A program made the position numbers and the translations under genes. 64,000 bases of DNA from Patescibacteria group bacterium (GTDB lineage Bacteria; Patescibacteriota; JABMPQ01; JAQVVF01): contig JBAZSC010000001.1 of assembly GCA_041662665.1 (NCBI GenBank), positions 257,511 through 321,510 on the forward strand. The letters are read 5' to 3'. Below, piece after piece: positions 6,784 through 29,689 of this stretch (position 1 is the first letter of the stretch; each line of letters opens with the position of its first letter). The notes beneath the pieces were generated by a model. It ran no database searches and was not told the origin of the DNA. It was given only the letters and a program-made list of their open reading frames with translations.

Positions 6784-6868
6784 TATAAATATAATATATT
6801 GTTTTGATTAAGTCAGGTTTAATACTTGACTTAATTTAATTAATATATTAATATATTTTTATTGGTTT

Positions 6869-8243: not shown

Positions 8244-8248
8244 ATTCT

Positions 8249-8461: not shown

Positions 8462-8709
8462 ATGCATTATGTTTATATTTTAGAAACGAAATTTAACAAA
8501 TTGTATATTGGATGTACTTCAGATATTAAAAAAGATTAATCCGGCATCAAAATGGTCACGTAATAGCAACAAAGAATCTCAGACCAATAAAATTAATAAG
8601 TTATATTGTTTTAAAAAATAAATATACAGCCTTTAAGCTTGAAAAATATTTTAAATCTGGATCCGGTAGAGCATTTATAAGAAAACATTTTTTTTATGAA
8701 AATCATTAA
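8462..8709 (+). pseudogene. small GIY-YIG nuclease family gene with a -1 frame break inside an A6 run
   Basis: Frame 1 reads MHYVYILETKFNKLYIGCTSDIKK then stops. After the A-run at 8528-8533, frame 2 continues RLIRHQNGHVIATKNLRPIKLISY...FKSGSGRAFIRKH. Together these give the GIY-(10)-YIG...R..H.N architecture. Confidence 0.55.
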
Positions 8710-11952: not shown

Positions 11953-11975
11953 TTTAAAATAATTTTTTTAACAAA

Positions 11976-12049
11976 CGGACTCGACCGGATTCGAACCGGC
12001 GATCTTCGCCGTGACAGGGCGACGTGTTGGGCCTCTACACCACGAGTCC
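11976..12049 (-). tRNA. tRNA-Asp (anticodon GTC)
   Basis: Reverse complement folds as GGACTCG-TG-GTGTAGAGGCCCAACAC-G-TCGCC-CTGTCAC-GGCGA-AGATC-GCCGG-TTCGAAT-CCGGT-CGAGTCC-G. Confidence 0.85.
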
Positions 12050-12060
12050 ATGTTTTATAA

Positions 12061-12134
12061 TAGCAGGGGACGGATTCGAACCGTCGACCGCCACTTTATG
12101 AGTGTGGTGCTCTAACCAACTGAGCTACCCTGCC
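12061..12134 (-). tRNA. tRNA-Met (anticodon CAT); elongator type, or possibly lysidine-modified tRNA-Ile2
   Basis: Reverse complement GGCAGGG-TA-GCTCAGTTGGTTAGAGC...CTCATAA...GACGG-TTCGAAT-CCGTC-CCCTGCT-A. There is a 31/39 A-A mismatch at the loop base. CAT alone cannot separate Met from Ile2. Confidence 0.75.
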
Positions 12135-12184
12135 CAAAAAAATAACAAAATTATAAATTAAAAATAACAAAATTTAGAATCGTA

Positions 12185-12211
12185 AATTTTTCATTTATAA
12201 TTTAGTTATTT
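12185..12211 (+). promoter_or_regulatory. tRNA-associated 24-nt motif, copy 3 (identical to copy 1)
   Basis: ATTTTTCATTTATAATTTAGTTATT lies immediately 3' of the minus-strand initiator tRNA and points toward it on the + strand. This argues against a simple promoter role for this copy. Confidence 0.4.
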
Positions 12212-12222
12212 CTAATTCAATA

Positions 12223-12296
12223 TTGCGGGGGGCGGATTTGAACCGCCGACCTTCAGGTTATGAGCCTGACGAGCTTCCAAGCTGCTCTACCCCGCG
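12223..12296 (-). tRNA. initiator tRNA-fMet (anticodon CAT)
   Basis: Reverse complement CGCGGGGTAGAGCAGCTTGGAAGCTCGTCAGGCTCATAACCTGAAGGTCGGCGGTTCAAATCCGCCCCCCGCAA. It has a C1:A72 mismatch, a TTCAAAT T-loop and near-identity to E. coli tRNA-fMet. Confidence 0.9.
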
Positions 12297-12360
12297 CCGT
12301 GTCCGCCGATTTATCTGCCGAAGCTTTAGCATAGGCAGAAGCTTTAGCGAAGGCGGAATA
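12297..12360. repeat. family B repeat block (two GAAGCTTTAGC units with GGCGG/CCGCC stems)
   Basis: gtgTCCGCCgatttatctgccGAAGCTTTAGCataggcaGAAGCTTTAGCgaaGGCGGAatac. Confidence 0.6.
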
Positions 12361-12405
12361 CATATATTATATATTAAACAAATAAAAAAGCAAGTTAAGT
12401 ACTTG

Positions 12406-14007
12406 CTATAGGTGCGATCGCTTGATCATGGCGTATCTCTCCATTGCTTCAACCAAGATAACAGGCAACAACTCCAGATGATCCATCCAAATGTATTCAG
12501 AAGTTCCATGAATATTCTGTGCTCCATTCCACATGTTTGGTCCAGGCAAATCTGGCAAATCCATATTCGCTATGCCAACATCTGTACCACCTCGAGCATC
12601 AAATTCTTTCATGATCATATCAAACATTGCCATCGCTTCACGCAATGGCTCCAGTACCCAAGGATGAGCCTGAATTGCATACTTGATATTTCGGTAATAC
12701 TTTTTCTTGTTAGTCAAAACTTCCAAAAGTCCAGAAAAATGATCATTTGTTTTCAGATCATCTGCCAGTTTACAGAGCAGTGCTACTAGCTGTTCAGCTT
12801 CCTCTTCATCAAATGTCCTTGGAATAGAATTCACCACAACCTTTTCCGGATTTTCCATCTTCACGCTATCAACCCAGCAAAATGACTGCTTATCCTTGCT
12901 CCTCCATGGCGGTACTGTATTATGGTGAACTGCCGACACGTAATAACACGCAGCAAGCAAAGCAGGCCAGACTTGAAATTCTTTCTCGCCAGAATATTCC
13001 GAAATAATATATTCAAGACCAACATTCAAAGCATCAGCTTCTCGCGTAAAGCTCTTCAACAAATTAACACTAATGCATGCTTTGTCAAAGAAAATATCAA
13101 CTTCAGATTTCACAGTTGACAAACTCTTGATCTGAATATAGAAACCAAGCTTTTTTGTGTCCAATACTTTTCTGACAAAATGCGACGCTGCATACTTGGC
13201 ATCAGCCAGATTACCGCCATCTAGTCCAGGATGAGCGCTTCTTCCAGTAAAGACCAAAGACATCTTTGTATTAACTCTGTCTTTGCTAACTTTAATGCCT
13301 TTGCTTTCAAAAGTTGCTGTTACCTTATTGCCGATGAAACAACCAACATCAACGATCGGTGGTTTTCCGCCATCAACTGTCAACAAAACATCGCGGTGGC
13401 GATCGGGCAACATGTTCGCATTGAATATGCCTTGCTCTTCATCAGGAAAGAAAAGAAGCTCAATTGGTCCATGCGGATGCTCTTCTTCATCGCTCAACAA
13501 TCTGGCAACTGCTTCCATAATTCCAGCCAATCCAGCTTTACAGTCAGCACCAAGCAAAGAGTCTCCACTACTTGTGATGATTCGCTGACCAAAACGATGC
13601 TCTCGATTCTTGCCATCGTCAAACAATACAACCTTTTTGCCTGTCTCTGGATCTGCGAGTGGGAGCTCAATTGGCTTGCCATCAAATCGATGAATCAACG
13701 GCTTGACATCTCCAGAAGCATCTGGAGCAGTATCAAAGTGTGCTGACAAAGTTACAACAACAGCAGCATTAAAACCAGGTGTTGCTGGAATCAAACAATC
13801 CAAAATACAAGTATCACTCAAATGCGGCTTCAGACCCATTGCTTCCAATTCAGATTTGACGAGTCTTGCCAATGTCCATTGTCCTTCGCTTGATGGTGAA
13901 GTTTCTGATTCGCAAGATTGAGTATTAATTCGAACACAGTCCAAAAAACGATTTACAACCGGTGACCACATTCCAAACATCGGATCTCTTTCGTCAACTT
14001 CGATCAT
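12406..14007 (-). CDS. M20-family metallopeptidase, peptidase T (tripeptidase)-like; GC-elevated gene
   Basis: HFDTAPDASGDV, SLLGADCKAGLAGIMEA, LLFFPDEEQG and FDARGGTDVG...NIHGTSEYI match PepT/M20B metal-binding blocks. GC is about 45% against a 30% background. GAGGAGGAAGAGAG lies immediately upstream of the ATG, with the hairpin ACGCTCCTA-AGG-TAGGAGCGT upstream of that. Confidence 0.6.
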   Translation of the reverse strand: MIEVDERDPMFGMWSPVVNRFLDCVRINTQSCESETSPSSEGQWTLARLVKSELEAMGLKPHLSDTCILDCLIPATPGFNAAVVVTLSAHFDTAPDASGDVKPLIHRFDGKPIELPLADPETGKKVVLFDDGKNREHRFGQRIITSSGDSLLGADCKAGLAGIMEAVARLLSDEEEHPHGPIELLFFPDEEQGIFNANMLPDRHRDVLLTVDGGKPPIVDVGCFIGNKVTATFESKGIKVSKDRVNTKMSLVFTGRSAHPGLDGGNLADAKYAASHFVRKVLDTKKLGFYIQIKSLSTVKSEVDIFFDKACISVNLLKSFTREADALNVGLEYIISEYSGEKEFQVWPALLAACYYVSAVHHNTVPPWRSKDKQSFCWVDSVKMENPEKVVVNSIPRTFDEEEAEQLVALLCKLADDLKTNDHFSGLLEVLTNKKKYYRNIKYAIQAHPWVLEPLREAMAMFDMIMKEFDARGGTDVGIANMDLPDLPGPNMWNGAQNIHGTSEYIWMDHLELLPVILVEAMERYAMIKRSHL

Positions 14008-14490
14008 CTCTCTTCCTCCTCTCTCGTTGTGACAAAGAACAACGCTCCTACCTTAGGAGCGTTATATCAGAATATAATTAAATTATAATTTCGTCAACTT
14101 ATTTCGGTCCCAAAAAATATTTCAGCAATGGCAAAAAAGCATAAAAAATAAATGCTATAATTGCGACCATAATTAAATAAACTCTTAAAATTTTTGCTTC
14201 TTCTAACATTTGACCCAAAGACTAATTACATAAATCAACGTAAACAACAAAATAATTGTTGAACAGGCAAAAGTTAATAATAATTTTTCAGTAATGTCCA
14301 TAACTTTAGTGATTAGTAAATAAGTAATCAGTAACTAGTAGATATCTATATTATAAATAATATTTAAAAAGATGGCAACCTTTTAAAGATAGTTAATATT
14401 TGTTAAAATAAACGAGTAGCAAGTAGAAAGCAGTATGTAGCTGGCAACTTTCTACTTTCTACATTCTACTCGCTACTAATAACAAAAATC

Positions 14491-15735
14491 ATGTTAACAT
14501 TTTTAATCATTCTTACTTCCATCCTAACCTTAATTTGCTCAGGCCTTGCTTATTATCTTATTAAGATTAATAAAAAGCTAGCGGAGCCAGAAAGCAATGA
14601 AAATGACAAAATCTTGCATGAGCGAATTGATAATTTAAATCAATATGTTTCTCAAAATTTAAATCAAACTAACAAATCAATTTCCGAAAATTTAAATCAA
14701 GTCACAAAAACAATGCTTGCTCAAATTAGTTCTCAAACTAGTCAGCTAAATGCCAGGTTAAATGATCAGACAGGTCAGCTTAATGAAAGATTAAAAGAAA
14801 ATAGCGAGCTAATCCAAAAATCTCAAGGCAATGTTGGCTCGCGTCTTGATAATGCTGCCAAAGTTGTAAGTTCTGTTCAATCAAAATTAGCCCAAATGGA
14901 AGAATCCAACAAAAAGATTTTTGAAGTTGGCAAAGATATTAGGGGATTGCAAGAAATTTTGAAAGCTCCAAAATTAAGAGGCTCTTTGGGAGAATTATTT
15001 TTGGGCGATTTATTATCTCAGACTTTTTCTAAAAATCATTATCAAGAACAATACATGTTTAAATCTGGTGAAAAAGTTGATGCTGTTATCAAATTAAAAG
15101 ATAATATGCTTGTTCCAATTGATGCTAAATTTCCTTTAGAAAATTTTCACAAAATGATTAATTTAGCCAAGAATGATCAAGAGAGAAAACAATATAAAAA
15201 AATGTTTAAAGATGATGTCAAAAAACATATTACTGCAATTTCCAAAAAATATATTTTACCTGATGAAGGCACAATTGATTATGCTTTGATGTATATTCCA
15301 GCAGAAAATGTTTATTATGAAACAATAATCAGAGACGAAGATGAAAATAATTTAGTTAATTTTGCTTATACGAAAAAAGTTTTTCCAGTCTCACCAAATT
15401 CATTATATATTTATGTCCAAGCAATTTTGCTTGGCTTAAAAGGCATGCAAATTGAAGAAGGAGCTAAAGAAATTTTGCATAATTTAAAAAGACTGCAAGG
15501 CGATTTTTCAAGATTTGGCGAGGAATTCAAAGTCTTAGGCAGTCACTTAAATAATGCAACAAAAAAATATAATGAAAGTGATAAAAGATTAGGCAAGTTT
15601 AATGATAAATTAGCTGAGATAAATTATGATGTTACAAACAAACCAGAAAAATTAGTTGAAACAAAAGCTTTGCCAATCAAACCAGAAGTTGCAGTACCTG
15701 TCAGTACACAAGAAAGTATAAATTTATATAATTAA
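14491..15735 (+). CDS. rmuC: DNA recombination protein RmuC-like
   Basis: N-terminal TM helix, then a long coiled-coil. Motif LKAPKLRGSLGELFLGDLL resembles the RmuC nuclease-fold core. Length 414 aa. Confidence 0.6.
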   Translation: MLTFLIILTSILTLICSGLAYYLIKINKKLAEPESNENDKILHERIDNLNQYVSQNLNQTNKSISENLNQVTKTMLAQISSQTSQLNARLNDQTGQLNERLKENSELIQKSQGNVGSRLDNAAKVVSSVQSKLAQMEESNKKIFEVGKDIRGLQEILKAPKLRGSLGELFLGDLLSQTFSKNHYQEQYMFKSGEKVDAVIKLKDNMLVPIDAKFPLENFHKMINLAKNDQERKQYKKMFKDDVKKHITAISKKYILPDEGTIDYALMYIPAENVYYETIIRDEDENNLVNFAYTKKVFPVSPNSLYIYVQAILLGLKGMQIEEGAKEILHNLKRLQGDFSRFGEEFKVLGSHLNNATKKYNESDKRLGKFNDKLAEINYDVTNKPEKLVETKALPIKPEVAVPVSTQESINLYN

Positions 15736-15736
15736 A

Positions 15737-16384
15737 ATGATCACTGCAATAATTTTTGACATGAATGGGGTAATAATAAATGATGAAGCCATTCATGAAT
15801 TAGCTTTTAAAGAAGTTTGTAAAAAATACAATATTATTTTAACGTCTCAAGGCTACAAGGATTTATGCATGGGCAAAACTGATGAGCAAGGTTTTATTGA
15901 AATAATTAAAAAATACAAATTAGATAATGTTAAAATAAGTAATTTAGTTGAACAAAAATCAACAAAATATTTAGAATTAATTCCAAAAAATATCAAAAGT
16001 TATCCAGGAGTTATTGATCTAATAAAAAAACTTCATAAAAAATTTATTTTAGCTTTAGCATCTAGTTCTAGTCGCCAAGAAATTGAAATGGTTTTGAATT
16101 ATTTTAAAATTAAAAAATTATTTAAAATAATTATTAGCGCTGATGATATTTCAAAAAGCAAGCCAGACCCAGAACCTTATCTTTTAACTACCAAAAAAAT
16201 TAACCAAAAACCAGAAAATTGTTTAGTTATTGAAGATTCAAAAAGTGGAATAATGTCAGCAAAAAGAGCTGGTATGAAATGTATTGCCATAACAACAACA
16301 CATAATGAAAAAGAATTAGTCGGTGCTGATGTTATCATAAATAAATTTTCAGAAATTACCGAAAAAATGATTCAAAATGTTTAA
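15737..16384 (+). CDS. HAD-superfamily hydrolase (subfamily IA, beta-phosphoglucomutase-like)
   Basis: DxD motif I IIFDMNGVII, motif II ALASSSS, and motif III-IV K...EDSKSG. Confidence 0.7.
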   Translation: MITAIIFDMNGVIINDEAIHELAFKEVCKKYNIILTSQGYKDLCMGKTDEQGFIEIIKKYKLDNVKISNLVEQKSTKYLELIPKNIKSYPGVIDLIKKLHKKFILALASSSSRQEIEMVLNYFKIKKLFKIIISADDISKSKPDPEPYLLTTKKINQKPENCLVIEDSKSGIMSAKRAGMKCIAITTTHNEKELVGADVIINKFSEITEKMIQNV

Positions 16385-16396
16385 AAAATAGCAATT

Positions 16397-16489
16397 TCTA
16401 CCCAGCTTTAGCTGAGGGGTGTTGGAGCTTTAGCTCCAGCGAACGAATAGGGCTAAAGCCCTGCGACCCCTTGGCTAAAGCCAGGTAGA
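16397..16489. mobile_element. MITE-like element (93 bp) with about 21-bp terminal inverted repeats; copy 1
   Basis: TIRs TCTACCCAGCTTTAGCTGAGG ... CCTTGGCTAAAGCCAGGTAGA. The interior is made of GGAGC-ttta-GCTCC and GGGC-taaa-GCCC hairpins. A second copy with the same TIRs and a different interior is at 49927-50033. Confidence 0.55.
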
Positions 16490-16505
16490 AAATAAATAAA
16501 ATCTT

Positions 16506-17324
16506 ATGCCCGAAAAACCACAAATAGAATTACAAGATATTCAACAAAATCCTGAACAAAAATCTGAAACAGGTTTAGAAATTGTAAAAACTCCAGAATC
16601 AGAACAATTTGTTGAACATGTCAATGAAATTCATGAAGCAGTACAACGTGATAGGAAAGTTACATATGGCCAAGTTGCAGATTTAAGAAAAGATTTAGAA
16701 GGATTTAAATTAGATGTTTGTGGCGAGCAAATGACTTTGGCAGAAATCAGAGAAATTCCAGATTTCGGATATAATTATGAAATTTGGAAATCTATAATGG
16801 AAGGAAATATTTTTTTACATAACCAAGTTACTGGTCTTATTCCTAACGTAACTCGAAAGTTAGTTGATGAAAATAATAAAAAAAACGAAAAGATCAGTAA
16901 TCAGGATGATTGGAAAGCTTTATATTTTGATTCTTTAAAAAAAATTTCACCTAAGATAGCAAAGGAATTTAGAAGTCTTAAGTCAGGAATCTATTTGAGT
17001 ACATTTACAGAACTTTCCGATGAAGTTATATTCGAGTTGTCCCATTCAGCTAGTTTATTTATTTCTTTAAGTCATCTAGTATCATTATCTGATCAGCAAG
17101 CAGAATATTTGTCTCAATTTCAAGGTAGGCTCAATTTAAACGGTGTCAATTCTTTATCGGACAATGCTGCGCGATTTATCGGGCAACGTGGTTCTTATAC
17201 TTGGTTAGATAGTCTAGTCCATATCTCTGATAATGGATTGAAATTTTTAGGTAAAGGGAGAATCGATCTATCTCCAGAGTTGGGAAAAAGATTAAAGAAA
17301 TTAAAAGCTGAACAAAATGCTTAA
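16506..17324 (+). CDS. paralog family P (conserved about 95-aa N-domain plus RI-type LRR-like about 25-aa repeats), member 1
   Basis: N-domain PEKPQIELQDIQQ..ETGLEIVKTPESEQFVEH.NEIHEA....K.TYGQVADLRKDLE is shared by five genes. C-terminal repeats follow L..L.SLSD..A..LS...G.L.LN...SLSD.AA. Confidence 0.6.
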   Translation: MPEKPQIELQDIQQNPEQKSETGLEIVKTPESEQFVEHVNEIHEAVQRDRKVTYGQVADLRKDLEGFKLDVCGEQMTLAEIREIPDFGYNYEIWKSIMEGNIFLHNQVTGLIPNVTRKLVDENNKKNEKISNQDDWKALYFDSLKKISPKIAKEFRSLKSGIYLSTFTELSDEVIFELSHSASLFISLSHLVSLSDQQAEYLSQFQGRLNLNGVNSLSDNAARFIGQRGSYTWLDSLVHISDNGLKFLGKGRIDLSPELGKRLKKLKAEQNA

Positions 17325-17375
17325 AGATTTTAACTTACAATAACGCCAAGCCGTCATAAAAAATAAATTAAAATT

Positions 17376-18239
17376 ATGTCCGAAAAACCACCAATAGAAT
17401 TAAAAGATATCGCCCAAGAATCAGAACCAAAATCTGAAACAGGTTTAGAAATTGTTGAAACTCCAGCATCAAAACAATTTGTTGAACATGCCAATGAAAT
17501 TCATGAAGCAATAGAACATGATAAAAAAATTACATATGGCCAAGTTGCAGATTTAAGAAAAGATTTAGAGCAATTTAAATTTGATGTATGTGGTGAGCAA
17601 ATGACTATTGCAGAAATAAAACAAATACCAGATTTTCAACATAATTATGAAATTTGGAAAAAAATAATGTCTGGAGAATTAATTAGTCGATGGAGCCAAA
17701 ATGAAGAAGATCTTACTTATCTTTTGCCAAAGGTGGCACAAGTTCTAGTTGAAGAATATAATAAAAAAAATGAAGAAACTTTCAAAATACATGATTATGG
17801 CGTTGAAGATCTTATGGACTTAAAGCTAAGCAACATCAAAAGAATCACTCCTGATACAATAAAAAATTTTAAAGATTTTAAAGCTAATATTTTTTTAGAT
17901 GGTTTGACCGAAATATCTGACGAATCAATGCTCGAATTATCAAAATCTTCAAGTTACCTTATTTCATTATCAAGCTTAACGTCTTTATCGGACAAACAAG
18001 CAGAATATTTATCTCAATTCAATGGCGGTAGATTATACTTAAATAGTATAAAATCACTTTCAGATTATGCTGCAAATAAATTTGCGCACAGCAAAGTTAC
18101 GTACGTATTATTAAGAGGTGTAGAAACTATTTCCGATTCTGCTCTTTTGCAGTTAGAAGGAACAAAAGTTGTTCTATCTGATACACAAAAAGAAAGGCTA
18201 AAAAGTTTAAAAGCCAAACAAAATGCTTCAAGATCTTAA
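17376..18239 (+). CDS. paralog family P, member 2
   Basis: About 85% nucleotide identity to member 1 over the first 300 nt. The same LRR-like C-terminal repeats are present. Confidence 0.6.
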   Translation: MSEKPPIELKDIAQESEPKSETGLEIVETPASKQFVEHANEIHEAIEHDKKITYGQVADLRKDLEQFKFDVCGEQMTIAEIKQIPDFQHNYEIWKKIMSGELISRWSQNEEDLTYLLPKVAQVLVEEYNKKNEETFKIHDYGVEDLMDLKLSNIKRITPDTIKNFKDFKANIFLDGLTEISDESMLELSKSSSYLISLSSLTSLSDKQAEYLSQFNGGRLYLNSIKSLSDYAANKFAHSKVTYVLLRGVETISDSALLQLEGTKVVLSDTQKERLKSLKAKQNASRS

Positions 18240-18282
18240 TCTAGAACAAACGCCAAGCCGTCATAAAAAATAAATTAAAACT

Positions 18283-18921
18283 ATGCCAGAACAACCATCG
18301 CAAGTAGAATTAAAAGATATTCAACAAACGAAAGAAACAGAATCTGAAACAGGTTTAGAAATTGTTAAAACTCCTGAATCAGAACAATTTGTTGAACATG
18401 CCAATGAAATTCATGAAGCAATGCAAGCTGATGGGAAAATAACTGCTGGCCAAGTTGCAGATTTAAGAAAAGATTTAGAAGGATTAAAATATGATTTTTA
18501 CGGAGAACAATTATCAATTGCCGAAATCAGGCAAATCCCAGATCTTCAACATAATTTAAAAATTTGGCAAGAAATTTCTAATGGAAAATTTCGTAATTAT
18601 AAGGAATTAACTTATTTAACTCCAGAAATTGCTCAGAAAATTGTTTATCCCGCCTCAATCAAAAGAGTCGGTCACGCACCTATTCCACTTATCGATTTTC
18701 CACCCAGAGATTTATATTTAAACAACTTAAAAACATTATCTGTCGAATCGGCAAGGATATTGTTGAGGAGATTGTCAACAGGTGATCGAATACTTTCTCT
18801 TCAAGGTTTAGTAGATTTCCCTGAAGAAGAATTAGGATTATTAGATGATCCAAATATTCATTTGTCCCGAGAGCTTACATTAAAGTTGATTGAAAAAAAA
18901 GAAGAGATGGGTTTAATTTAA
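18283..18921 (+). CDS. paralog family P, member 3 (shorter, divergent C-terminus)
   Basis: Shares the N-domain with members 1 and 2. The stop lies 3 nt before the helicase ATG. Confidence 0.55.
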   Translation: MPEQPSQVELKDIQQTKETESETGLEIVKTPESEQFVEHANEIHEAMQADGKITAGQVADLRKDLEGLKYDFYGEQLSIAEIRQIPDLQHNLKIWQEISNGKFRNYKELTYLTPEIAQKIVYPASIKRVGHAPIPLIDFPPRDLYLNNLKTLSVESARILLRRLSTGDRILSLQGLVDFPEEELGLLDDPNIHLSRELTLKLIEKKEEMGLI

Positions 18922-18924
18922 AAT

Positions 18925-21900
18925 ATGTTAAAAGATCTTAATACAGAACAACTCCAAGCCGTCAAACACGAAACAGGTCCACTACTTATCGTTGCCGGCG
19001 CTGGCACAGGAAAAACAACAGCCATTACTAAAAAATTGGCTTATTTAATTTTGGAAAAAAAAGTAAAGCCAGAAAATATTTTAGCGTTAACTTTTACTGA
19101 AAAAGCAGCTGCTGAAATGGAGGAGCGAGTAGACAAATTAATGCCTTATGGTTATACAGATTTATGGATTGAAACCTTTCATGGTTTTTGTGATCGAATT
19201 TTAAAAGATAACGCCTTAGATGTTGGCTTAGACCCAAATTACAAATTATTAACTTCTGCAGAACAATGGATGTTCATCAAATCCAAAATTTTTGATTTTG
19301 ATTTGAAATATTATAGACCATTAGGCAATCCTAATTCATTTATTTCAGAATTAATCAAACATTTTTCTCGCGCTAAAGATGAAAATATCTTGCCAGAAGA
19401 TTATTTGAAATTCGTCAAAAAACTATCCGCCTCCGCTCCTGCGGGAGCTTCGGCGGACAAAGAAACCATAGACAAAATGTCAGAAGTTGCCAAATCTTAC
19501 AAAAAATATCAAGAATTAATGGTCGCCGAAAGTCAGATGGATTTTGGTGATTTAATTATTGAAACATTAAAATTATTTAAAAAAAGAAAAAATATTCTAA
19601 AAAAATATCAAAAACAATTCCAATATATTCTAGTTGATGAATTTCAAGATACTAATTTTGCCCAATATCAATTATTGCAACTTTTAGCACCGCCACAAAA
19701 TAATTTAACTGTTGTCGGCGATGATGACCAATGCCTGCCTCCTGATTCCAAAATTGAAACAAAAACTGGAATAAAGAAAATAAATAAAATAAAAAAAGGA
19801 GAATTAGTTTTATCAGCAGTGGGCAAGGGACATACCTCTTATTATCAAGTTAATAAAGTTATCAAAAATAAAAAAAATGCTCGTTTCCTAAATATTTCAA
19901 CAAAAAATGGAAATAAAATTACAATTACTGATAATCACAAAATGTTTTGCTTTGTACCTTTAAAATCAGATAAAAAATATTACTATGTTTATTTAATGGA
20001 AAAAAGAAATTTAGGATATAGGCTTGGCATAACTAACGATTTAGCGACGCGATTAAGATTAGAACGAGGGGCTGATCGAATTATTGGTATTAAGTCCTTT
20101 AAATCAGAAATTGAAGCAAGATATTATGAAACATTGCTTTCATTAAAATATCAAATTCCTTTAACCTGTTTTTGTTTCCGTCCTGGAGTTTTTATGAATA
20201 AGGAACTGTTAGAAAAACTTTACCAAGAATTTGATACTTATAAAAATGCGGAAAGATTAGCCAAAGATTTAAAAATTGATTTATCAGCTCATCATTTTGC
20301 GTTAGATGCAGTTAATCGCGGTAGCAGTTTAAGAATAAAAATCATAATTGAACAGTGTTACCGTAAACATGTTAGCAAAGTCAGAAGAGGCATCCTTTTT
20401 GGACCCAAAATCAGTCATTCTGTAATAGTAGAAACATCGGACAAGAAAACTATTGAAACACTAAAGAAAAATGGTTTTAATTTAAGAAAAGCAAGAAAAA
20501 ATGGTTTTAGGTTTAAATATACAGATCAAGATTTTCAAAAAGTTGGACAAATCGCTTTAAAATTAGAAAAAATTACAGGCGGTATTTTAGAAACCAGATT
20601 TGAAGTTGGCGCATTAAATATTAAACACCGAAAAGCCTTGATGATGCCAGCCAAAAATTTGCTTGTTGGACATTTTTTACCTGTATTAAAAAAAGACAAT
20701 AAAGAAATTATTTATGATGAAATAATTGATATCAAAGAAAAAAATAAGACTAGCAATGTCTATGATTTAGAAATCGAAAAAACACATAATTTCATTGCTG
20801 ATAATATTGTTGTGCATAATTCTATCTATAAATTTCGCGGCGCTTCTGTTAGCAATATTTTGCAATTCCAAAAAGATTTTCCCAAAAGCAAAAAAATAGT
20901 TTTGACAGAAAATTATCGATCAGTTCAGCCAATTCTCGATTTAGCATATAATTCAATTCAATTAAATAATCCAGATCGGTTAGAAGCAAAATATAAAATC
21001 AATAAAAAATTAAAATCACAAATTAAATCTAAAAGCGATTTAGCAATCAATCATATCCATAAGGCAACATATGAGCAAGAAGCAGTTGATGTCATCAAAA
21101 ATATTATTAATCTAAAACAAAAAGATAAATCAACTTGGTCAGATTTTGCAATTCTAGTGCGCGCAAATTCTTCTGCTGAAATATTCATCAATCTTTTATC
21201 TTCAAAAAAAATTCCATATCAATTCATTGCATCTCGCGGACTTTATTCTCGCCCAGAAATTATGGATTTAATTTCGTATTTGCGTGTTGTTGCAAATTTT
21301 TATGATAATATTAATTTTTATCGCGTTTTAAGTTTGCCAATTTTTAAATTAAATTCAGAAGATATAATTAGACTTGTTGCCTATAGCCGTCGTAAAAATT
21401 TAAGCATTTTTGATTTAGCTTGCACACCAAGTCGAATTGTCGGACTGAATAAAGATAGTGTTGAAAAATTTAAAGTTGTTGTTGAACTAGTTAAAAAACA
21501 TGCAAAACTTAGTTTGGAAAAAAATGCCGCTGAAGTTTTGTTAGACTTTTTAAAAACATCCGGTTATTTAAAATATTTGCAAACCAATAAAGATTTAGAA
21601 GCAGAAAAAAAGATTTTGAATATCTCATTATTTTTCAAAAGAATCCAAGAATTGCAGGAAAATAAAAAATTAACTGTTCCAGAATTTATTGATCAATTAG
21701 ATTTGATGATTGAAGCAGGCGAGGATCCATCGCCAATCCAATTAGATGAAGGCCCAGATTCAATCAAAATTTTGACTATCCATTCTTCAAAAGGATTAGA
21801 ATTTGATAATGTTTTTGTCGTCAATATGGTTGAAGGAAAATTTCCATCTCGAAACAGAAAAGATTTAATTGAATTGCCAGAAAAATTAATTAAAGAGCAA

Positions 21901-22902
21901 TTGCCAGATTCAAATTCCAATATTCAAGAAGAAAGAAGACTATTTTATGTAGCAATGACTCGTGCAAAGAAAAGGTTATTTTTTACATCTGCCAATGATT
22001 ATGGCGGAAAAAGAAAAAAGAAAATTTCTAGATTTTTAGTTGAAATTAAAAAACATTTTGATAAAAATTCCGCGTTTTCTGCGTTAGATTCTGCGTGTTT
22101 CCGCGATAACAATATTTTAACGCAGAATAACGCTGAACCTAACGCAGAAAACGCGAAAAAGAAAATAAGATATTCTTTACCAAGTAAATTTTCATACACT
22201 CAGCTTAAAGCATTTGAAACTTGTCCGCATCAATACCGTTTCCGCCATATTATTGGTTTGCCAAGTTCAGGCGCTTCTTCTCAAAGTTATGGAAAAACAA
22301 TGCATGCAGTTTTGCAAAACTTTTTCGCTGATTTGCAAAAAGGAAAAAGTCCGACAGAAAAAGATTTATTAAGTTATTATGACAGTTTTTGGATCGATGA
22401 TTTTTATCAAGACAAAAAGCACGAACAAAAAAGATTTGAAGAAGGCAAGAAAGCTTTGCAAGAATTTTACAAAATAAATAATAAAAATTTAAAAGCGCCG
22501 TTATTTTTAGAAAAAGGCTTTAACCTAAGAATTAAAGACACATGTCTAAAAGGCCAGATTGATCGCATTGATAAATTAGATGATGGCACAGTTGAGATCG
22601 TTGATTATAAAACAGGCAAATTGCCAAAGAATGAAAAGGAAGTAGAGAAAAATGAGCAATTATTGATTTATTCTTATGCCTGCCAAAAAGTATTAAATTT
22701 AAAACCATCAAAACTAAGCCTTTATTTTATTGACCAAAACAAAAAATATTCTGCTAAACAAAATTCAATTAAAGAAGAAAAGATAATTCAAAAAGTCCAA
22801 GAACTAATTGCTAAAATTAAAGAATCAGAATTTATTGCCAAGCCAGGCTTTGCATGCAAATTTTGTGACTATAAGGATATCTGTGAACATGCTAAACATT
22901 GA
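18925..22902 (+). CDS. UvrD/PcrA-type SF1 helicase fused to a C-terminal RecB/Cas4-like PD-(D/E)xK nuclease with Cys cluster; intein-containing
   Basis: Walker A GAGTGKTT, motif III VVGDDDQ|...|SIYKFRGA split by the intein, and TENYRS. The C-terminal CPHQYRF...IDRIDKL...IVDYKTGK...CKFCDYKDICEH is an AddB/Cas4-like nuclease with four Cys. Confidence 0.8.
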   Translation: MLKDLNTEQLQAVKHETGPLLIVAGAGTGKTTAITKKLAYLILEKKVKPENILALTFTEKAAAEMEERVDKLMPYGYTDLWIETFHGFCDRILKDNALDVGLDPNYKLLTSAEQWMFIKSKIFDFDLKYYRPLGNPNSFISELIKHFSRAKDENILPEDYLKFVKKLSASAPAGASADKETIDKMSEVAKSYKKYQELMVAESQMDFGDLIIETLKLFKKRKNILKKYQKQFQYILVDEFQDTNFAQYQLLQLLAPPQNNLTVVGDDDQCLPPDSKIETKTGIKKINKIKKGELVLSAVGKGHTSYYQVNKVIKNKKNARFLNISTKNGNKITITDNHKMFCFVPLKSDKKYYYVYLMEKRNLGYRLGITNDLATRLRLERGADRIIGIKSFKSEIEARYYETLLSLKYQIPLTCFCFRPGVFMNKELLEKLYQEFDTYKNAERLAKDLKIDLSAHHFALDAVNRGSSLRIKIIIEQCYRKHVSKVRRGILFGPKISHSVIVETSDKKTIETLKKNGFNLRKARKNGFRFKYTDQDFQKVGQIALKLEKITGGILETRFEVGALNIKHRKALMMPAKNLLVGHFLPVLKKDNKEIIYDEIIDIKEKNKTSNVYDLEIEKTHNFIADNIVVHNSIYKFRGASVSNILQFQKDFPKSKKIVLTENYRSVQPILDLAYNSIQLNNPDRLEAKYKINKKLKSQIKSKSDLAINHIHKATYEQEAVDVIKNIINLKQKDKSTWSDFAILVRANSSAEIFINLLSSKKIPYQFIASRGLYSRPEIMDLISYLRVVANFYDNINFYRVLSLPIFKLNSEDIIRLVAYSRRKNLSIFDLACTPSRIVGLNKDSVEKFKVVVELVKKHAKLSLEKNAAEVLLDFLKTSGYLKYLQTNKDLEAEKKILNISLFFKRIQELQENKKLTVPEFIDQLDLMIEAGEDPSPIQLDEGPDSIKILTIHSSKGLEFDNVFVVNMVEGKFPSRNRKDLIELPEKLIKEQLPDSNSNIQEERRLFYVAMTRAKKRLFFTSANDYGGKRKKKISRFLVEIKKHFDKNSAFSALDSACFRDNNILTQNNAEPNAENAKKKIRYSLPSKFSYTQLKAFETCPHQYRFRHIIGLPSSGASSQSYGKTMHAVLQNFFADLQKGKSPTEKDLLSYYDSFWIDDFYQDKKHEQKRFEEGKKALQEFYKINNKNLKAPLFLEKGFNLRIKDTCLKGQIDRIDKLDDGTVEIVDYKTGKLPKNEKEVEKNEQLLIYSYACQKVLNLKPSKLSLYFIDQNKKYSAKQNSIKEEKIIQKVQELIAKIKESEFIAKPGFACKFCDYKDICEHAKH
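19426..19462 (+). repeat. family B nested-hairpin repeat inserted in-frame in the helicase CDS
   Basis: TCCGCCtccGCTCCtgcgGGAGCttcGGCGGAcaaag encodes SASAPAGASADKE. It is architecturally identical to the intergenic 27905-27941 CCCGCCttcGCTCCtcgtcatttGGAGCtacGGCGGG. Confidence 0.55.
19732..20820 (+). mobile_element. intein (363 aa) inserted in helicase motif III, with putative homing-endonuclease domain
   Basis: Begins with Cys (CLPPDSKIETKTG) right after VVGDDDQ and ends VVHN before S of SIYKFRGA, so excision restores the canonical VGDDDQSIYKFRGA. The internal YYYVYLMEKRNLGYRLGITNDLATRL is GIY-YIG-like. Confidence 0.75.
22068..22158 (+). repeat. CTGCGTT-unit palindromic repeat (family A) inserted in-frame in the helicase CDS
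   Basis: ccgCGTTttCTGCGTTagattCTGCGTgtttccgcg...AACGCAGAAtaacgctgaacctAACGCAGAAAACGcg. It translates in-frame as SAFSALDSACFRDNNILTQNNAEPNAENAKK, lying between the helicase and nuclease parts. Confidence 0.65.
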
Positions 22903-27978: not shown

Positions 27979-28066
27979 TATTAGAAAAAGTATTCGCTGT
28001 ATTCGAAAATTTATTAGAGTGAGACCAAAAAAAAGACCGACGTAAATCGGTCAAAAAAGGTGCAAC

Positions 28067-29689
28067 TTATTCTGTCACTGCAATTGATGGAATTTCATCA
28101 GATCCGCGATCTGAAGTCATCTGGAAAAAGATCATCATTGCGAGCGATTGCTTGTCAGAGGTCAGGCTGTGGTAGAATTCACGCCAAGCCTTGCCTTGCT
28201 GTGAAGCATTTCGCATCTCAATGATTTCTTCAATCTGTGTTTGCAATTCTTGCTTTCCGGAAAGCATCTGATTGATGAACGTATCACGACGCTCTTCAAT
28301 CAAATCTTCGACTACAGAAGCAAGATAATCAAAATCCACAACATTCGAATCAACATGAAGACAAAAATCTCGATCGTCAGTATAGACCTCGAGCTCAATC
28401 TCGGGATAATGAGCTCTGATCCTAGCGACGATTTCTGCAGTATCCAAAAGGTCAACGCTCTGGAAGCCGGTGTTATAGATCACGAGCTGATTACGCTCTT
28501 TGTGACCAGTAACAACGAAATCCACGCGCTTTTTTCCAATTGGATACAAATCATTTGGTTCAATGTAAGGAGGCTTGCTGAAAAAGAATCTTGCAGTCTG
28601 TCCATTTACTCTGGACTGACTGAAATCTCCAACAAAATAGCTGATGCCATAACGGTTTACATAGCGACCCTTCTGCGATTCATTCAAGTTATAGCCAAAC
28701 ATTTCTCGAACTGAAAAGAAAGCTTCGATGCAGTAAAAAGCAGCTTGAACAGATTCTGCATAGAAGGCATGATCTCTTGAGCCGCCTGGTGTTACGCGAT
28801 AATTCATCCCTCGCATCAGGTTAGTGATGCCATAGAGATTATTCATCTCGTAATGAGGCCTGCCATCAAAAGGTCTGCCGTTGTCTTTTGCATCAATGAA
28901 ATCAGTCATGATTTGGATATGCTCGAAATTCGGAAGCTTAGTCAAGCGATCATTGTGAGCTCTGAATACCAGTCCAGTTGCAGACCAAGGCTGGTAGTAG
29001 AAAACTCTTCTGCCCTTCTGAAATTCTTCAGTACTGTAAGGGATATATTCATCTCCAATGCCCTTGCAGATAACAAGAGTCTGATCATCATATTCAGGGA
29101 AATGTCCATCATCATCTACGAATTCAACAAATACTTTGTCACGATCGAAAGAGAAAAGTTTGAAACTTTCGATCATTTTGTTCTTTACTGCAGACAGTCG
29201 CTTTGTTCTCAATGAGTTATCATTCAAAACAAAAACAACTCTCTTTGCATCTTCATTTGTTACTGTCTTAAGATTGGCATGATGATCATAATGAAACACT
29301 CTTTGTCCAGCCTTGAACTTTTCAGCAGTCCATGGGTCGAACTTGCATCCTGTATCAAGGTTAATGATCATTACGCGCGATCTTTTGACCGTGTTTCGAG
29401 CTACTGAAATTTCTGACTTTCCATCTGATTCTTCTTCATCATCAACATATGAAAGAAAACGTCCGAGTCCTGCATGGAAAAATCCATATTCAGTGTATGT
29501 CTCTCCGTTTTTCACAAACAACAAAATAATTCTAGCATCCATATTCGACAAACCAAAAGCTCGGCAAAACATGTCAAATGCACCTGCAACATCTCGATCT
29601 GGTGAGACATGTCCAACGAGAAGAATGAAATCCAAATGCAAATAATAAAACAAGTCTTTCAGTGCCATCTCGTCCTCCTTTGGATTCAA
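28067..29689 (-). CDS. DHH-family phosphoesterase-like protein with long uncharacterised C-terminal region; GC-elevated gene
   Basis: N-terminal motifs HLDFILLVGHVSPDRDVAGAFDM (DHH motif I, with PDRD in place of PDGD), VMIINLD and VFHYDHHAN (DHH motif III). A possible degenerate DHHA1 GGSRDH is present. GC is about 45%. AAAGGAGGACGAG lies immediately before the ATG. Confidence 0.45.
   Translation of the reverse strand: MNPKEDEMALKDLFYYLHLDFILLVGHVSPDRDVAGAFDMFCRAFGLSNMDARIILLFVKNGETYTEYGFFHAGLGRFLSYVDDEEESDGKSEISVARNTVKRSRVMIINLDTGCKFDPWTAEKFKAGQRVFHYDHHANLKTVTNEDAKRVVFVLNDNSLRTKRLSAVKNKMIESFKLFSFDRDKVFVEFVDDDGHFPEYDDQTLVICKGIGDEYIPYSTEEFQKGRRVFYYQPWSATGLVFRAHNDRLTKLPNFEHIQIMTDFIDAKDNGRPFDGRPHYEMNNLYGITNLMRGMNYRVTPGGSRDHAFYAESVQAAFYCIEAFFSVREMFGYNLNESQKGRYVNRYGISYFVGDFSQSRVNGQTARFFFSKPPYIEPNDLYPIGKKRVDFVVTGHKERNQLVIYNTGFQSVDLLDTAEIVARIRAHYPEIELEVYTDDRDFCLHVDSNVVDFDYLASVVEDLIEERRDTFINQMLSGKQELQTQIEEIIEMRNASQQGKAWREFYHSLTSDKQSLAMMIFFQMTSDRGSDEIPSIAVTE

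What the first reader, a model, noticed from the sequence alone, without database searches (positions are those of the whole stretch)
18925..22902. Intein splitting helicase motif III of a UvrD-type helicase / Cas4-like nuclease fusion; endonuclease region looks GIY-YIG-like
Seen in the sequence:
- The 1325-aa ORF reads ...LTVVGDDDQ | CLPPDSKIETKTG ...(363 aa)... IVVHN | SIYKFRGA...
- Removing 19732-20820 recreates the universally conserved SF1 motif III VGDDDQSIYKFRGA.
- The insert starts with Cys, ends with HN and is followed by Ser, the full intein splice-junction signature.
- Inside it, YYYVYLMEKRNLGYRLGITNDLATRL resembles the GIY-(9-11)-YIG...N motif. Canonical inteins usually carry LAGLIDADG or HNH endonucleases, so this is atypical.
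- A freestanding frameshifted GIY-YIG gene at 8462-8709 shares the YVYIL...LYIGCTSD flavour.
- The host protein ends in a PD-(D/E)xK nuclease with a four-Cys cluster (CPHQYRF...CKFCDYKDIC).

Inference: this makes it an AddA/AddB-like single-chain helicase-nuclease.
Basis: partly seen in the sequence, partly recalled or inferred. Interest (0 to 1): 0.6.

Follow-up and report, generated by a model that had tools for sequence, protein, structure and literature searches.

The report
Helicase intein carrying GIY-YIG-like endonuclease
A self-splicing protein insert (intein) sits exactly inside a conserved motif of a DNA-repair helicase-nuclease, and its internal "homing" domain is a divergent GIY-YIG-type nuclease, a type the intein papers I could search do not report inside inteins.

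Summary
Every sequence observation checks out. ORF 18925-22902 encodes a 1325-aa UvrD/PcrA-type helicase fused to a Cas4/AddB-type PD-(D/E)xK nuclease with four conserved Cys. Nucleotides 19732-20820 are a 363-aa class-1 intein (Cys1, TxxH, HN|Ser+1). It passes the Pfam and NCBIfam intein thresholds. Removing it restores motif III, VGDDDQ|SIYKFRGA. The closest orthologue (88% aa) lacks exactly these 1089 nt.

The 245-aa nested domain hits no LAGLIDADG, HNH or GIY-YIG model at threshold. It defines a large family (580 clusters at 50% identity, at least 94 species genomes, many phyla). Every case examined sits in an intein of a UvrD-type helicase, nearly always at this junction.

AlphaFold2 (pLDDT 94) gives a beta-beta-alpha-beta-alpha N-subdomain. 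Its top five PDB matches are all GIY-YIG proteins, though the E-values are weak. A profile-profile comparison with bona fide GIY-YIG proteins gives 89.7% probability (P 1.8e-6, well above controls). The Tyr, Arg and Glu catalytic positions are conserved. The YIG Tyr is replaced by an invariant Arg and the His by an invariant Glu.

A C-terminal beta-rich module weakly resembles LAGLIDADG/MotA DNA-binding saddles.

Verdict: a real intein with a divergent GIY-YIG-like homing endonuclease. It is a new variant of a known kind. Nuclease activity is inferred, not shown.

The parts
18925..22902 (+). Host gene: 1325-aa precursor of a UvrD/PcrA-type SF1 helicase fused to a PD-(D/E)xK nuclease, interrupted by an intein
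   Evidence: ORF; Pfam architecture. Identical to P0157, which NCBI names 'UvrD-helicase domain-containing protein [Patescibacteria group bacterium]'.
18925..19731 (+). N-extein (aa 1-269): helicase domains 1A/1B, including the GAGTGKT and DEFQD motifs, ending in the first half of motif III (VVGDDDQ)
   Evidence: PF00580 covers aa 5-270, profile positions 1-251 of 271. The pcrA model covers aa 1-270.
19732..20820 (+). Intein, 363 aa (protein aa 270-632), class-1 signature: Cys1 ... His-Asn, followed by Ser+1
   Evidence: Exactly this segment is missing from the 86%-identical orthologous gene in L084.
19732..19959 (+). N-terminal splicing (Hint) region, intein residues 1-76: block A (Cys1) and block B (T66-D-N-H69)
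   Evidence: TIGR01445 covers aa 270-341. Pfam Hint covers aa 268-344. T66, D67, N68 and H69 are invariant in 8 relatives.
19969..20172 (+). GIY-YIG-like catalytic subdomain (intein residues ~80-147), beta-beta-alpha-beta-alpha. Y87 is nearly invariant. R97, G99, R107, E111, E133 and P143 are invariant (protein numbering Y356, R366, G368, R376, E380, E402, P412)
   Evidence: Conservation. AF2 models. Foldseek top 5 are all GIY-YIG proteins. hhalign against canonical GIY-YIG gives 89.7%, P 1.8e-6. GIY-YIG is the most recurrent weak Pfam hit among relatives.
20200..20271 (+). Two-helix linker (intein residues 157-180)
   Evidence: AF2/DSSP helices 86-95 and 98-109 of the nested-domain model.
20302..20640 (+). 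C-terminal beta-rich alpha/beta module (intein residues 191-303), presumed DNA-binding. No conserved acidic residues; only H229 (nested-domain H158) is nearly invariant
   Evidence: AF2 strands and helices 123-232. Weak local Foldseek matches to LAGLIDADG half-domains and the MotA C-terminal domain: 62-90 columns, rmsd about 4.3-5.4 A, probability about 0.9. No sequence-profile match to LAGLIDADG.
20680..20820 (+). C-terminal splicing region (intein residues 317-363): block F (VYDLEIEKTHNF) and block G (NIVVHN)
   Evidence: TIGR01443 covers aa 612-633. phmmer matches the C-termini of solved DnaB, RadA and RecA inteins.
20821..22902 (+). C-extein (aa 633-1325): starts with Ser+1 of SIYKFRGA (second half of motif III), then helicase domains 2A/2B, then the nuclease
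   Evidence: PF13361 covers aa 658-1023. The rep and uvrD models resume at aa 631-632.
22189..22887 (+). PD-(D/E)xK (RecB/Cas4/AddB-type) nuclease domain with a four-Cys cluster (C1100; C1311-x2-C1314-x5-C1320) and the motifs GxIDR (D1213), DYK (D1227, K1229) and QLxxY (Q1245, Y1249)
   Evidence: PF12705 scores 133.6 bits. The cas4 and addB models give sub-threshold hits. These residues are at least 97% conserved in 120 orthologues.

Best explanation
The gene encodes a precursor in which a class-1 intein interrupts helicase motif III of a single-chain UvrD/PcrA-type helicase fused to a Cas4/AddB-type nuclease.

Splicing (inferred from the intact signature): Cys270 starts an N-S acyl shift. The N-extein is transferred to Ser633. 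Asn632 cyclises. The result is a 962-aa helicase-nuclease with VGDDDQSIYKFRGA restored, plus a free 363-aa intein.

The intein's nested 245-aa domain is not LAGLIDADG or HNH. It is a divergent GIY-YIG-superfamily nuclease subdomain, joined by two helices to a beta-rich module that probably binds DNA.

Proposed action (inferred): the free intein recognises and cuts intein-less alleles of the helicase gene at or near the motif III codons. Recombinational repair then copies the intein in. This is homing.

Shown here:
- intein identity and exact boundaries;
- an intein-less orthologous allele;
- a large family of the nested domain confined to helicase inteins;
- GIY-YIG-like fold and homology;
- invariant putative catalytic residues.

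Inferred only: splicing competence, nuclease activity, the target site, and current mobility.
For: Intein:
- Pfam and NCBIfam intein models are above their cut-offs, and the helicase models are split at consecutive positions.
- Blocks A, B, F and G are present.
- The orthologue in L084 is collinear, with exactly nt 19732-20820 absent.

Mobility pattern:
- Only 4 of the 120 closest orthologues carry an intein. Relatives at 81-88% aa identity lack it.
- The same junction (D..Q|C upstream, HN|S/C downstream) is seen in every one of the 83 loci whose contig reaches it, from many phyla and three viral contigs, with no internal stops.
- In 41 related loci the inteins are 44-58% identical to the window's while their exteins are only 34-51% identical.
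- The same nested domain occurs in inteins at two other sites of UvrD-like genes.

Nested domain:
- 580 clusters have E<=1e-3, and all 20 hits scanned against Pfam lie in intein-bearing UvrD-type helicases or are intein-only fragments.
- AF2 models reach pLDDT 94.4 and 93.7.
- The N-subdomain's top five PDB matches are all GIY-YIG proteins (1zg2; Slx1 7cq2_A with 73 columns, rmsd 3.9 A, probability 0.96).
- Below three closer family members, the viral structure library returns many weak GIY-YIG, T5orf172 and MUG113 hits, mixed with unrelated ones.
- hhalign against 48 canonical GIY-YIG proteins gives 89.7%, P 1.8e-6, against at most 12.4% in 21 controls. It aligns Y87 with the GIY Tyr, R107 with I-TevI R27 and E133 with E75.
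- R97, G99, R107, E111 and E133 are invariant in 49 sequences down to 23% identity.
- GIY-YIG is the most recurrent weak Pfam hit (4 of 49), and the most recurrent PHROGs are annotated 'endonuclease'.
Against: - No curated GIY-YIG model reaches threshold. The window's own domain gives no hit even at E<=10.
- All Foldseek E-values for the GIY-YIG matches are weak (0.07-0.34).
- Two canonical positions are substituted (YIG Tyr to Arg97, His31-equivalent to Glu111), and no equivalent of Asn90 was identified. Catalysis may therefore differ or be absent.
- The whole nested domain's top PDB hits are LAGLIDADG enzymes, though with TM about 0.2.
- The nearest known intein is only 58% identical, and intein GC (28.3%) is close to extein GC (30.4%). 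Recent acquisition is therefore not demonstrated; loss from relatives is equally possible.
- No biochemical evidence exists for splicing or cleavage.
Confidence: 0.75

Rival explanations
1. The intein is real, but the nested domain is a catalytically dead remnant or a purely DNA-binding or structural module. In that case the intein is immobile and vertically inherited, kept only because precise loss is rare.
For: - The YIG Tyr and the His31 position are substituted, and no Asn90 equivalent was found.
- No curated nuclease model reaches threshold.
- Intein GC is similar to host GC.
- The nearest relative's intein is only 58% identical.
- By its Pfam name, T5orf172 is annotated as a DNA-binding domain.
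Against: - Five residues at GIY-YIG active-site positions are invariant across 49 sequences as far apart as 23% identity. A dead remnant would not keep them.
- Presence is sporadic: 4 of 120 orthologues carry an intein, and relatives at 88% identity lack it.
- Spread across many phyla, and to two further insertion sites, argues for ongoing mobility.
Confidence: 0.17
2. The nested domain is a highly divergent LAGLIDADG homing endonuclease, the usual intein type, and the GIY-YIG resemblance is coincidental.
For: Foldseek with the whole nested domain ranks LAGLIDADG enzymes (I-LtrI, I-OnuI, I-CvuI, I-MsoI) first in the PDB. Local matches span 72-90 columns at rmsd about 4.5 A with probability about 0.9. 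A few LAGLIDADG hits also appear in the viral library.
Against: - The global matches have TM about 0.2 and rmsd 15-17 A.
- No LAGLIDADG Pfam model is among the recurrent weak matches at E<=10 across 49 members.
- hhalign of the C-terminal module against four LAGLIDADG intein domains gives 0.5%.
- There is no conserved acidic pair. All invariant residues lie in the N-terminal subdomain, which matches GIY-YIG.
- At most, the C-terminal module reuses a LAGLIDADG-like saddle for DNA binding.
Confidence: 0.05
3. The insert is a non-splicing domain insertion that stays in the mature helicase.
For: Splicing was not tested. The insert is in frame and conserved.
Against: - It splits an essential SF1 motif.
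- It carries the full Cys1/TxxH/HN/Ser+1 signature and passes the curated intein thresholds.
- The Hint termini match solved inteins.
- Orthologues function without it.
Confidence: 0.03

Closest known systems
Canonical bifunctional inteins with LAGLIDADG (e.g. PI-SceI, PI-MtuI) or HNH endonuclease domains
   Same: A Hint splicing fold split by a nested endonuclease domain inserted after block B. It is inserted in a conserved motif of a DNA-metabolism ATPase, distributed sporadically, and always at the same site in different hosts.
   Different: The nested domain matches neither LAGLIDADG nor HNH models. Its conserved core is GIY-YIG-like.
GIY-YIG homing endonucleases of group I introns and free-standing phage genes (I-TevI, I-BmoI, SegA-G)
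   Same: An N-terminal beta-beta-alpha-beta-alpha catalytic module with conserved Tyr, Arg and Glu, a linker, and a separate C-terminal DNA-binding module (the 'beads on a string' layout).
   Different: - Here the module is translated in frame inside an intein.
- The YIG Tyr is Arg and the His31 position is Glu.
- No NUMOD or helix-turn-helix module was recognised. The C-terminal module is instead a beta-rich saddle-like domain.
- The domain stays below the Pfam PF01541 threshold.
'Fractured genes': free-standing GIY-YIG or Vsr-like endonuclease genes lying between split-intein halves (Dassa et al. 2009, PMC2677866)
   Same: A GIY-YIG nuclease associated with an intein at a conserved site of a DNA-metabolism gene. 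That paper proposed this arrangement as a route by which inteins could acquire new endonuclease types.
   Different: There the endonuclease is a separate ORF and the intein is split. The authors state that GIY-YIG is 'not known to be present in inteins'. Here the intein is contiguous and the domain is in frame.
UPF0213/YhbQ, T5orf172 and MUG113 branches of the GIY-YIG (URI) superfamily; Slx1
   Same: These are the best sequence-profile and structure matches (1zg2, Slx1, and the T5orf172/MUG113 viral models). By my recollection, T5orf172 also carries a basic residue in place of the YIG Tyr; this was not tested here.
   Different: Those are small stand-alone proteins or subunits of repair nucleases, not intein-nested, and they lack the C-terminal module.
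Previously catalogued UvrD-helicase inteins (16 counted by Novikova et al. 2016, PMC4760082)
   Same: Same host family. Some may belong to this very intein family (Firmicutes and Actinobacteria are listed as hosts).
   Different: The passages I read in that survey do not describe the endonuclease type of the UvrD inteins. Whether those 16 sit at motif III was not checked.
AddAB / AdnAB / RecBCD helicase-nucleases and Cas4
   Same: The host combines an SF1A UvrD-like motor with a RecB-family nuclease. The nuclease has the Cys-x(n)-Cys-x2-Cys-x5-Cys pattern of the AddB/Cas4 iron-sulfur cluster.
   Different: It is a single chain with no adjacent partner gene. The AddA, AddB, RecB and Cas4 models all score far below their cut-offs, and PcrA is the best match. 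This is the common Patescibacteria 'UvrD-helicase domain-containing protein' of about 960-1000 aa.

Membership tests
Intein (class 1, Hint superfamily) | N-terminal nucleophile (Cys/Ser) at residue 1 and block B TxxH | tested here: met
   Cys270 is intein residue 1. T66-D-N-H69 is invariant in 8 relatives. TIGR01445 scores 32.9 against 24.5.
Intein (class 1, Hint superfamily) | C-terminal blocks F and G ending His-Asn, followed by a Ser/Thr/Cys +1 extein residue | tested here: met
   The sequence reads VYDLEIEKTHNF...NIVVHN|S. TIGR01443 scores 28.2 against 15.6. It matches the C-termini of solved inteins.
Intein (class 1, Hint superfamily) | Curated profile above threshold | tested here: met
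   PF14890 scores 70.7 bits against 35.8. PF01079 scores 34.6 against 29.7.
Intein (class 1, Hint superfamily) | Precise in-frame insertion whose removal restores a contiguous host protein; intein-less alleles exist | tested here: met
   Removal restores VGDDDQ|SIYKFRGA. The helicase models resume at consecutive positions. The L084 orthologue lacks exactly 19732-20820.
Intein (class 1, Hint superfamily) | Protein splicing actually occurs | not testable with these tools
   Needs expression followed by western blot or mass spectrometry.
GIY-YIG nuclease superfamily | Beta-beta-alpha-beta-alpha core fold | tested here: met
   The AF2 N-subdomain model (pLDDT 93.7) has E5-12, E16-22, H25-31, E37-44, H47-61. 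The Foldseek PDB top five are all GIY-YIG proteins, with weak E-values of 0.07-0.34. The best local match has 73 columns, rmsd 3.9 A, probability 0.96.
GIY-YIG nuclease superfamily | 'GIY' Tyr (I-TevI Y6) | tested here: met
   Y87 of YVY is at least 90% conserved and aligns with the YVY of UPF0213 proteins.
GIY-YIG nuclease superfamily | 'YIG' Tyr (I-TevI Y17) and Gly | tested here: not met
   The Gly (G99) is invariant, but the Tyr position holds an invariant Arg (R97).
GIY-YIG nuclease superfamily | Conserved Arg (I-TevI R27) and metal-binding Glu (E75) | tested here: met
   R107 and E133 are invariant in 49 sequences and sit in the aligned columns.
GIY-YIG nuclease superfamily | His/Tyr four residues after the Arg (I-TevI H31), and Asn (N90) | tested here: not met
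   The His position holds an invariant Glu (E111). No conserved Asn equivalent was found in the alignment.
GIY-YIG nuclease superfamily | Curated profile (PF01541 or clan members) above threshold | tested here: not met
   The window's domain gives no hit at E<=10. Four of 49 relatives give weak PF01541 hits (best E 0.045) and one hits MUG113.
GIY-YIG nuclease superfamily | Profile-profile homology to bona fide members | tested here: met
   hhalign gives 89.7%, P 1.8e-6 over 54 columns. The reversed control gives 2.8% and 20 column-shuffled controls give at most 12.4%.
GIY-YIG nuclease superfamily | Metal-dependent DNA cleavage | not testable with these tools
   A biochemical assay is required.
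LAGLIDADG homing endonuclease | LAGLIDADG helices with conserved acidic residues; curated profiles | tested here: not met
   LAGLIDADG is not among the recurrent weak Pfam matches across 49 members. hhalign gives 0.5%. Only weak local structural resemblance of the C-terminal module was seen.
HNH homing endonuclease | HNH (beta-beta-alpha-metal) motif or profile | tested here: not met
   No HNH hit in Pfam, NCBIfam or the structure searches.
UvrD/PcrA/Rep SF1A helicase (host) | Helicase N- and C-terminal domains with motifs I, II and III | tested here: met
   PF00580 scores 248 bits and PF13361 177 bits. The pcrA model scores 486.8 bits but is below the equivalog cut-off of 911, so this is a family member and not a PcrA equivalog.
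AddA / AddB (AddAB helicase-nuclease) | Equivalog-level match and a two-subunit operon | tested here: not met
   addA_Gpos scores 170.5 against 707.65 and addB_alphas 44.5 against 486.5. No partner gene is adjacent in the window or in L084.
Cas4/AddB-type PD-(D/E)xK nuclease with Fe-S cluster | RecB nuclease motifs plus the pattern Cys ... Cys-x2-Cys-x5-Cys | tested here: met
   PF12705 scores 133.6 bits. D1213, D1227, K1229, Q1245, Y1249 and the four Cys are at least 97% conserved. The cas4 model scores 43.6 against 65, so this is not a Cas4 equivalog. Fe-S binding was not tested.

The most novel reading that the evidence does not exclude
This is a member of a widespread but unrecognised class of inteins. 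Their homing endonuclease is a divergent GIY-YIG enzyme, with Arg in place of the YIG Tyr and Glu in place of the His. It is fused to a LAGLIDADG-like beta-saddle DNA-binding module. That would be an endonuclease type not yet documented in frame inside an intein. The class targets the codons of universally conserved SF1 helicase motifs, has spread across many bacterial phyla and phages, and has moved to at least three sites within UvrD-like genes.
Probability: 0.5. Interest if true: 0.7.

Novelty: new variant of a known kind. Interest (0 to 1): 0.6.

Why it matters
Reviews and surveys describe inteins as carrying LAGLIDADG endonucleases, or more rarely HNH ones. Dassa et al. 2009 state that GIY-YIG is not known in inteins. 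A 2025 survey of non-canonical intein endonucleases lists no in-frame GIY-YIG.

An in-frame, conserved GIY-YIG-like domain in hundreds of helicase inteins would matter in several ways:
- It would add an endonuclease type to the intein repertoire.
- It would support the view that inteins acquired endonucleases repeatedly from free-standing homing genes.
- It would offer a compact, sequence-tolerant nuclease that recognises a near-universal helicase motif sequence.
- It shows that current domain libraries leave this domain unannotated, so intein surveys that rely on LAGLIDADG and HNH models would classify these inteins as having no known endonuclease.

The host protein itself is ordinary for Patescibacteria.

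Tried and rejected
- Pfam and NCBIfam scans of the intein and of the nested domain alone at E<=10 found only Hint and intein models. Nothing matched the middle region.
- phmmer and profile searches of PDB sequences matched only the Hint termini. The N-subdomain gave a non-significant top hit to the GIY-YIG protein 1zg2 (E 0.67). A spurious EDS1 match for the whole profile was rejected.
- tblastn of the nested domain against annotated phage and plasmid records found no match.
- The LAGLIDADG hypothesis was considered because. It was rejected for the catalytic core; see the rivals.
- I tested whether the free-standing GIY-YIG gene at 8462 donated the nested domain. It did not: they share only 24% identity over 54 columns, and that gene belongs to the ordinary UPF0213 family.
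- I looked for evidence of recent transfer from composition and nearest relatives. The result was inconclusive: GC is 28.3% versus 30.4%, and the nearest intein is 58% identical.
- Literature searches for intein together with GIY-YIG, T5orf172 or UvrD intein found no description of this arrangement. The library is incomplete, and InBase could not be consulted.

Full report
**1. Observation**

The window has about 31% G+C. It contains a 1325-codon ORF at 18925-22902 on the + strand. The translation reads ...LTVVGDDDQ|CLPPDSK...IVVHN|SIYKFRGA... The segment between the bars is aa 270-632, nt 19732-20820, 363 aa. Deleting it gives VVGDDDQSIYKFRGA, the SF1 helicase motif III.

Pfam places the following domains on the protein:
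- UvrD-helicase on aa 5-270, profile positions 1-251 of 271;
- Intein_splicing, 70.7 bits against a cut-off of 35.8;
- Hint, 34.6 bits against 29.7;
- UvrD_C on aa 658-1023;
- PDDEXK_1 on aa 1089-1321.

NCBIfam's intein_Nterm (32.9 against 24.5) and intein_Cterm (28.2 against 15.6) are also above threshold. The PcrA, Rep and UvrD models stop at aa 270 and resume at aa 631-632 at consecutive model positions. The intein C-terminus matches solved DnaB, RadA and RecA inteins.

**2. The intein is absent from close relatives**

The protein is already in public data. P0157 is 100% identical and NCBI names it 'UvrD-helicase domain-containing protein [Patescibacteria group bacterium]' on a 645-kb contig. 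Its closest orthologues (88, 88, 86 and 81% aa identity) are 953-978 aa and carry no intein domain. Only 4 of the 120 best orthologues are longer than 1250 aa.

The orthologous locus L084 is collinear. Window 18913-19731 aligns with L084 5985-6795, and window 20824-22064 aligns with L084 6799-8039. Exactly nt 19732-20820 are therefore missing there. Across the junction, 76 of 90 nt are identical. The intein-less allele reads DDDQ|AIYKFRGA.

**3. The nested domain**

Intein residues 72-316 give no Pfam or NCBIfam hit at E<=10, whether LAGLIDADG, HNH or GIY-YIG.

A word-indexed search found only 7 relatives, all partial UvrD helicases. An exhaustive profile search of 1.84 billion representative proteins found 580 clusters at E<=1e-3, 275 of them at E<=1e-10. 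All 20 hits scanned against Pfam are UvrD-type helicases carrying intein splicing domains, or intein-only fragments. Most listed hits show the D..Q|C upstream and HN|S/C/T-I-Y-x-F/W-R-G downstream junctions where the sequence reaches them.

A scan of 185,579 species genomes returned 94 loci. They come from Patescibacteria, Omnitrophota, Rokubacteria, Saganbacteria, Margulisbacteria, Aerophobetes, Ignavibacterium, an actinobacterial MAG, MAGs labelled Gammaproteobacteria, and more distantly Clostridia, including the isolate Tissierella simiarum. Three viral contigs were also found. All 83 fetched loci show the same junction wherever the contig reaches it, with no internal stops.

Two proteins carry the same nested domain in inteins at other sites of UvrD-like genes: after ...WMDFE| in P0108 and after DEAQDLNK| in P0116.

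**4. What the nested domain is**

Across 49 sequences, down to 23% identity, the invariant residues are R97, G99, R107, E111, E133 and P143 (intein numbering). Y87 is at least 90% conserved. All of these lie in the first ~75 residues of the nested domain.

AlphaFold2 with this alignment gives pLDDT 94.4 and pTM 0.88. The model has three parts:
- an N-terminal beta-beta-alpha-beta-alpha unit;
- two linker helices;
- a beta-rich alpha/beta module.

The N-terminal part modelled alone has pLDDT 93.7. Its five best PDB matches are all GIY-YIG proteins: UPF0213 BH0048 (1zg2) and four Slx1 chains. The best local match covers 73 columns at rmsd 3.9 A with probability 0.96, but the E-values are only 0.07-0.34. 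The top PDB sequence-profile hit is again 1zg2, at a non-significant E of 0.67.

For an independent test I needed bona fide GIY-YIG proteins. I repaired the window's frameshifted free-standing GIY-YIG gene and collected its 47 intact PF01541 homologues. hhalign of the nested-domain profile against that alignment gives 89.7% probability and P 1.8e-6 over 54 columns. The reversed target gives 2.8% and 20 column-shuffled targets give at most 12.4%.

The alignment makes these assignments:
- Y87 falls on the GIY Tyr;
- G99 falls on the YIG Gly;
- R107 falls on the I-TevI R27 position;
- E133 falls on the E75 position;
- R97 replaces the YIG Tyr;
- E111 replaces the His31 position.

Scanning the 49 members one by one, GIY-YIG is the most recurrent weak Pfam hit (4 members, best E 0.045; MUG113 once). 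The three most recurrent PHROGs are annotated 'endonuclease'. In the viral structure library there are three significant matches: two to phage helicases of the same kind and one to a protein named as a DNA methyltransferase. Below them are many weak hits to GIY-YIG, T5orf172, MUG113 and group-I-intron endonucleases, mixed with unrelated proteins.

I conclude that the catalytic core is a divergent member of the GIY-YIG superfamily. It is not a canonical member.

**5. The C-terminal module**

Foldseek with the whole nested domain ranks LAGLIDADG enzymes first. The global matches are poor (TM about 0.2, rmsd 15-17 A). There are local matches of 72-90 columns at rmsd about 4.5 A, and also a match to the MotA DNA-binding domain.

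No LAGLIDADG profile matches, and the module has no conserved acidic residues. I read it as a DNA-binding saddle of uncertain origin. A LAGLIDADG-derived scaffold is possible but not shown.

**6. The host protein**

The C-terminal domain has the RecB-family motifs (GxIDR, DYK, QLxxY) and the pattern Cys1100 ... Cys1311-x2-Cys1314-x5-Cys1320. All are at least 97% conserved in 120 orthologues. This is the AddB/Cas4-type pattern.

The AddA, AddB, RecB and Cas4 models all score far below their cut-offs, and PcrA is the best match. No partner gene is adjacent in the window or in L084.

The architecture is the standard helicase of about 960-1000 aa in Patescibacteria. 'AddAB-like' is therefore an analogy, not a family membership.

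**7. Mechanism**

Inferred from the intact class-1 signature: an N-S acyl shift at Cys270, transfer to Ser633, cyclisation of Asn632, and release of a 962-aa helicase-nuclease and a 363-aa intein.

Inferred from domain identity, the invariant active-site residues and the distribution: the free intein cuts intein-less alleles near the motif III codons and is copied in by recombinational repair.

In 41 related loci the inteins are 44-58% identical to the window's, while the exteins that carry them are only 34-51% identical. This is what horizontal spread would give, but it does not prove it.

The nearest sampled intein is 58% identical, and intein and extein G+C are similar (28.3% and 30.4%). 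I therefore cannot say whether this lineage gained the intein recently or its relatives lost it.

**8. Comparison with what is known**

UvrD inteins are catalogued: 16 in the 2016 survey PMC4760082.

Dassa et al. 2009 (PMC2677866) found free-standing GIY-YIG genes between split-intein halves. [quoted passage not shown] It reports no in-frame GIY-YIG.

Further searches found no description of this arrangement. The library is incomplete and InBase could not be checked, so the novelty claim is provisional.

**9. Verdict**

This is a real intein in an ordinary helicase-nuclease. Its nested endonuclease is a divergent GIY-YIG-like domain that belongs to a large, unannotated, helicase-specific family. 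It is a new variant of a known kind. Interest is 0.6.

Confidence by step:
- intein: about 0.97;
- GIY-YIG superfamily homology: about 0.8;
- active homing endonuclease: about 0.6.

Noticed in passing
window 8462-8709 (+): Frameshifted free-standing GIY-YIG gene of the UPF0213/YhbQ type, just downstream of tRNA-Ser (8248-8337). Joining frame 1 and frame 3 gives an 82-aa protein that is 80% identical to an intact protein and matches 47 intact PF01541 proteins. It is either a pseudogene or an assembly error.
   Followed up: yes
window 12406-14007 (-), next to tRNA-Asp/Met/Met at 11975-12296: A 533-aa ORF in a 42% G+C block, in a genome of about 31% G+C. The block (about 12296-14096) is absent from the otherwise collinear relative L084, so it looks like a horizontally acquired gene beside a tRNA cluster. 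The protein was not identified.
   Followed up: partly
window 15737-18921 (+): A 215-aa ORF (15737-16384, not identified here) and three tandem paralogues (16506-17324, 17376-18239, 18283-18921) that share an N-terminal region of about 100 aa (M.EKP.IEL.DI...SETGLEIV.TP.S.QFVEH.NEIHEA). They lie between the ORF at 14491-15735, which aligns with L084's RmuC gene, and the helicase gene. In relative L084 the RmuC gene abuts the helicase directly, so this 3.2-kb block is an insertion or expansion. Function unknown.
   Followed up: partly
P0108 (aa ~165-450 and 508-788); P0116 (aa ~1220-1624 and 1664-2007): Some UvrD-like helicases carry two inteins with the same GIY-YIG-like nested domain at different sites (after ...WMDFE| or DEAQDLNK|, plus motif III). 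P0116 also has a LAGLIDADG intein in the P-loop (GSGK|C). This suggests the intein family switches target sites within one gene family.
   Followed up: partly
BFVD entry A0A8S5TZY8: A phage protein named 'adenine specific DNA methyltransferase' (782 aa) matches half of the nested domain very closely: 125 columns, rmsd 2.2 A, 26% identity. The domain may therefore also occur in a non-helicase host.
   Followed up: no
motif III of orthologues P0157-P0276; L084 nt 6796-6798: Thirteen of the 120 closest orthologues, including the 88%-identical intein-less one, have Ala instead of Ser at the +1 position (DDDQ|AIY). An intein inserted there could not splice unless the Ser codon were co-converted.
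   Followed up: partly
L002, L017, L027, L030, L032, L033, L042, L044, L046 and others: Many MAGs labelled 'uncultured Gammaproteobacteria bacterium' carry the Patescibacteria-type helicase-nuclease with this intein (exteins 41-47% identical to the window's). The taxonomic labels look doubtful.
   Followed up: no
window 28001-29000 and 41001-42000: Two further 1-kb blocks with 42-43% G+C in a window of about 31% G+C. No rRNA or other Rfam family except tRNAs was found in the window. These blocks were not examined.
   Followed up: no
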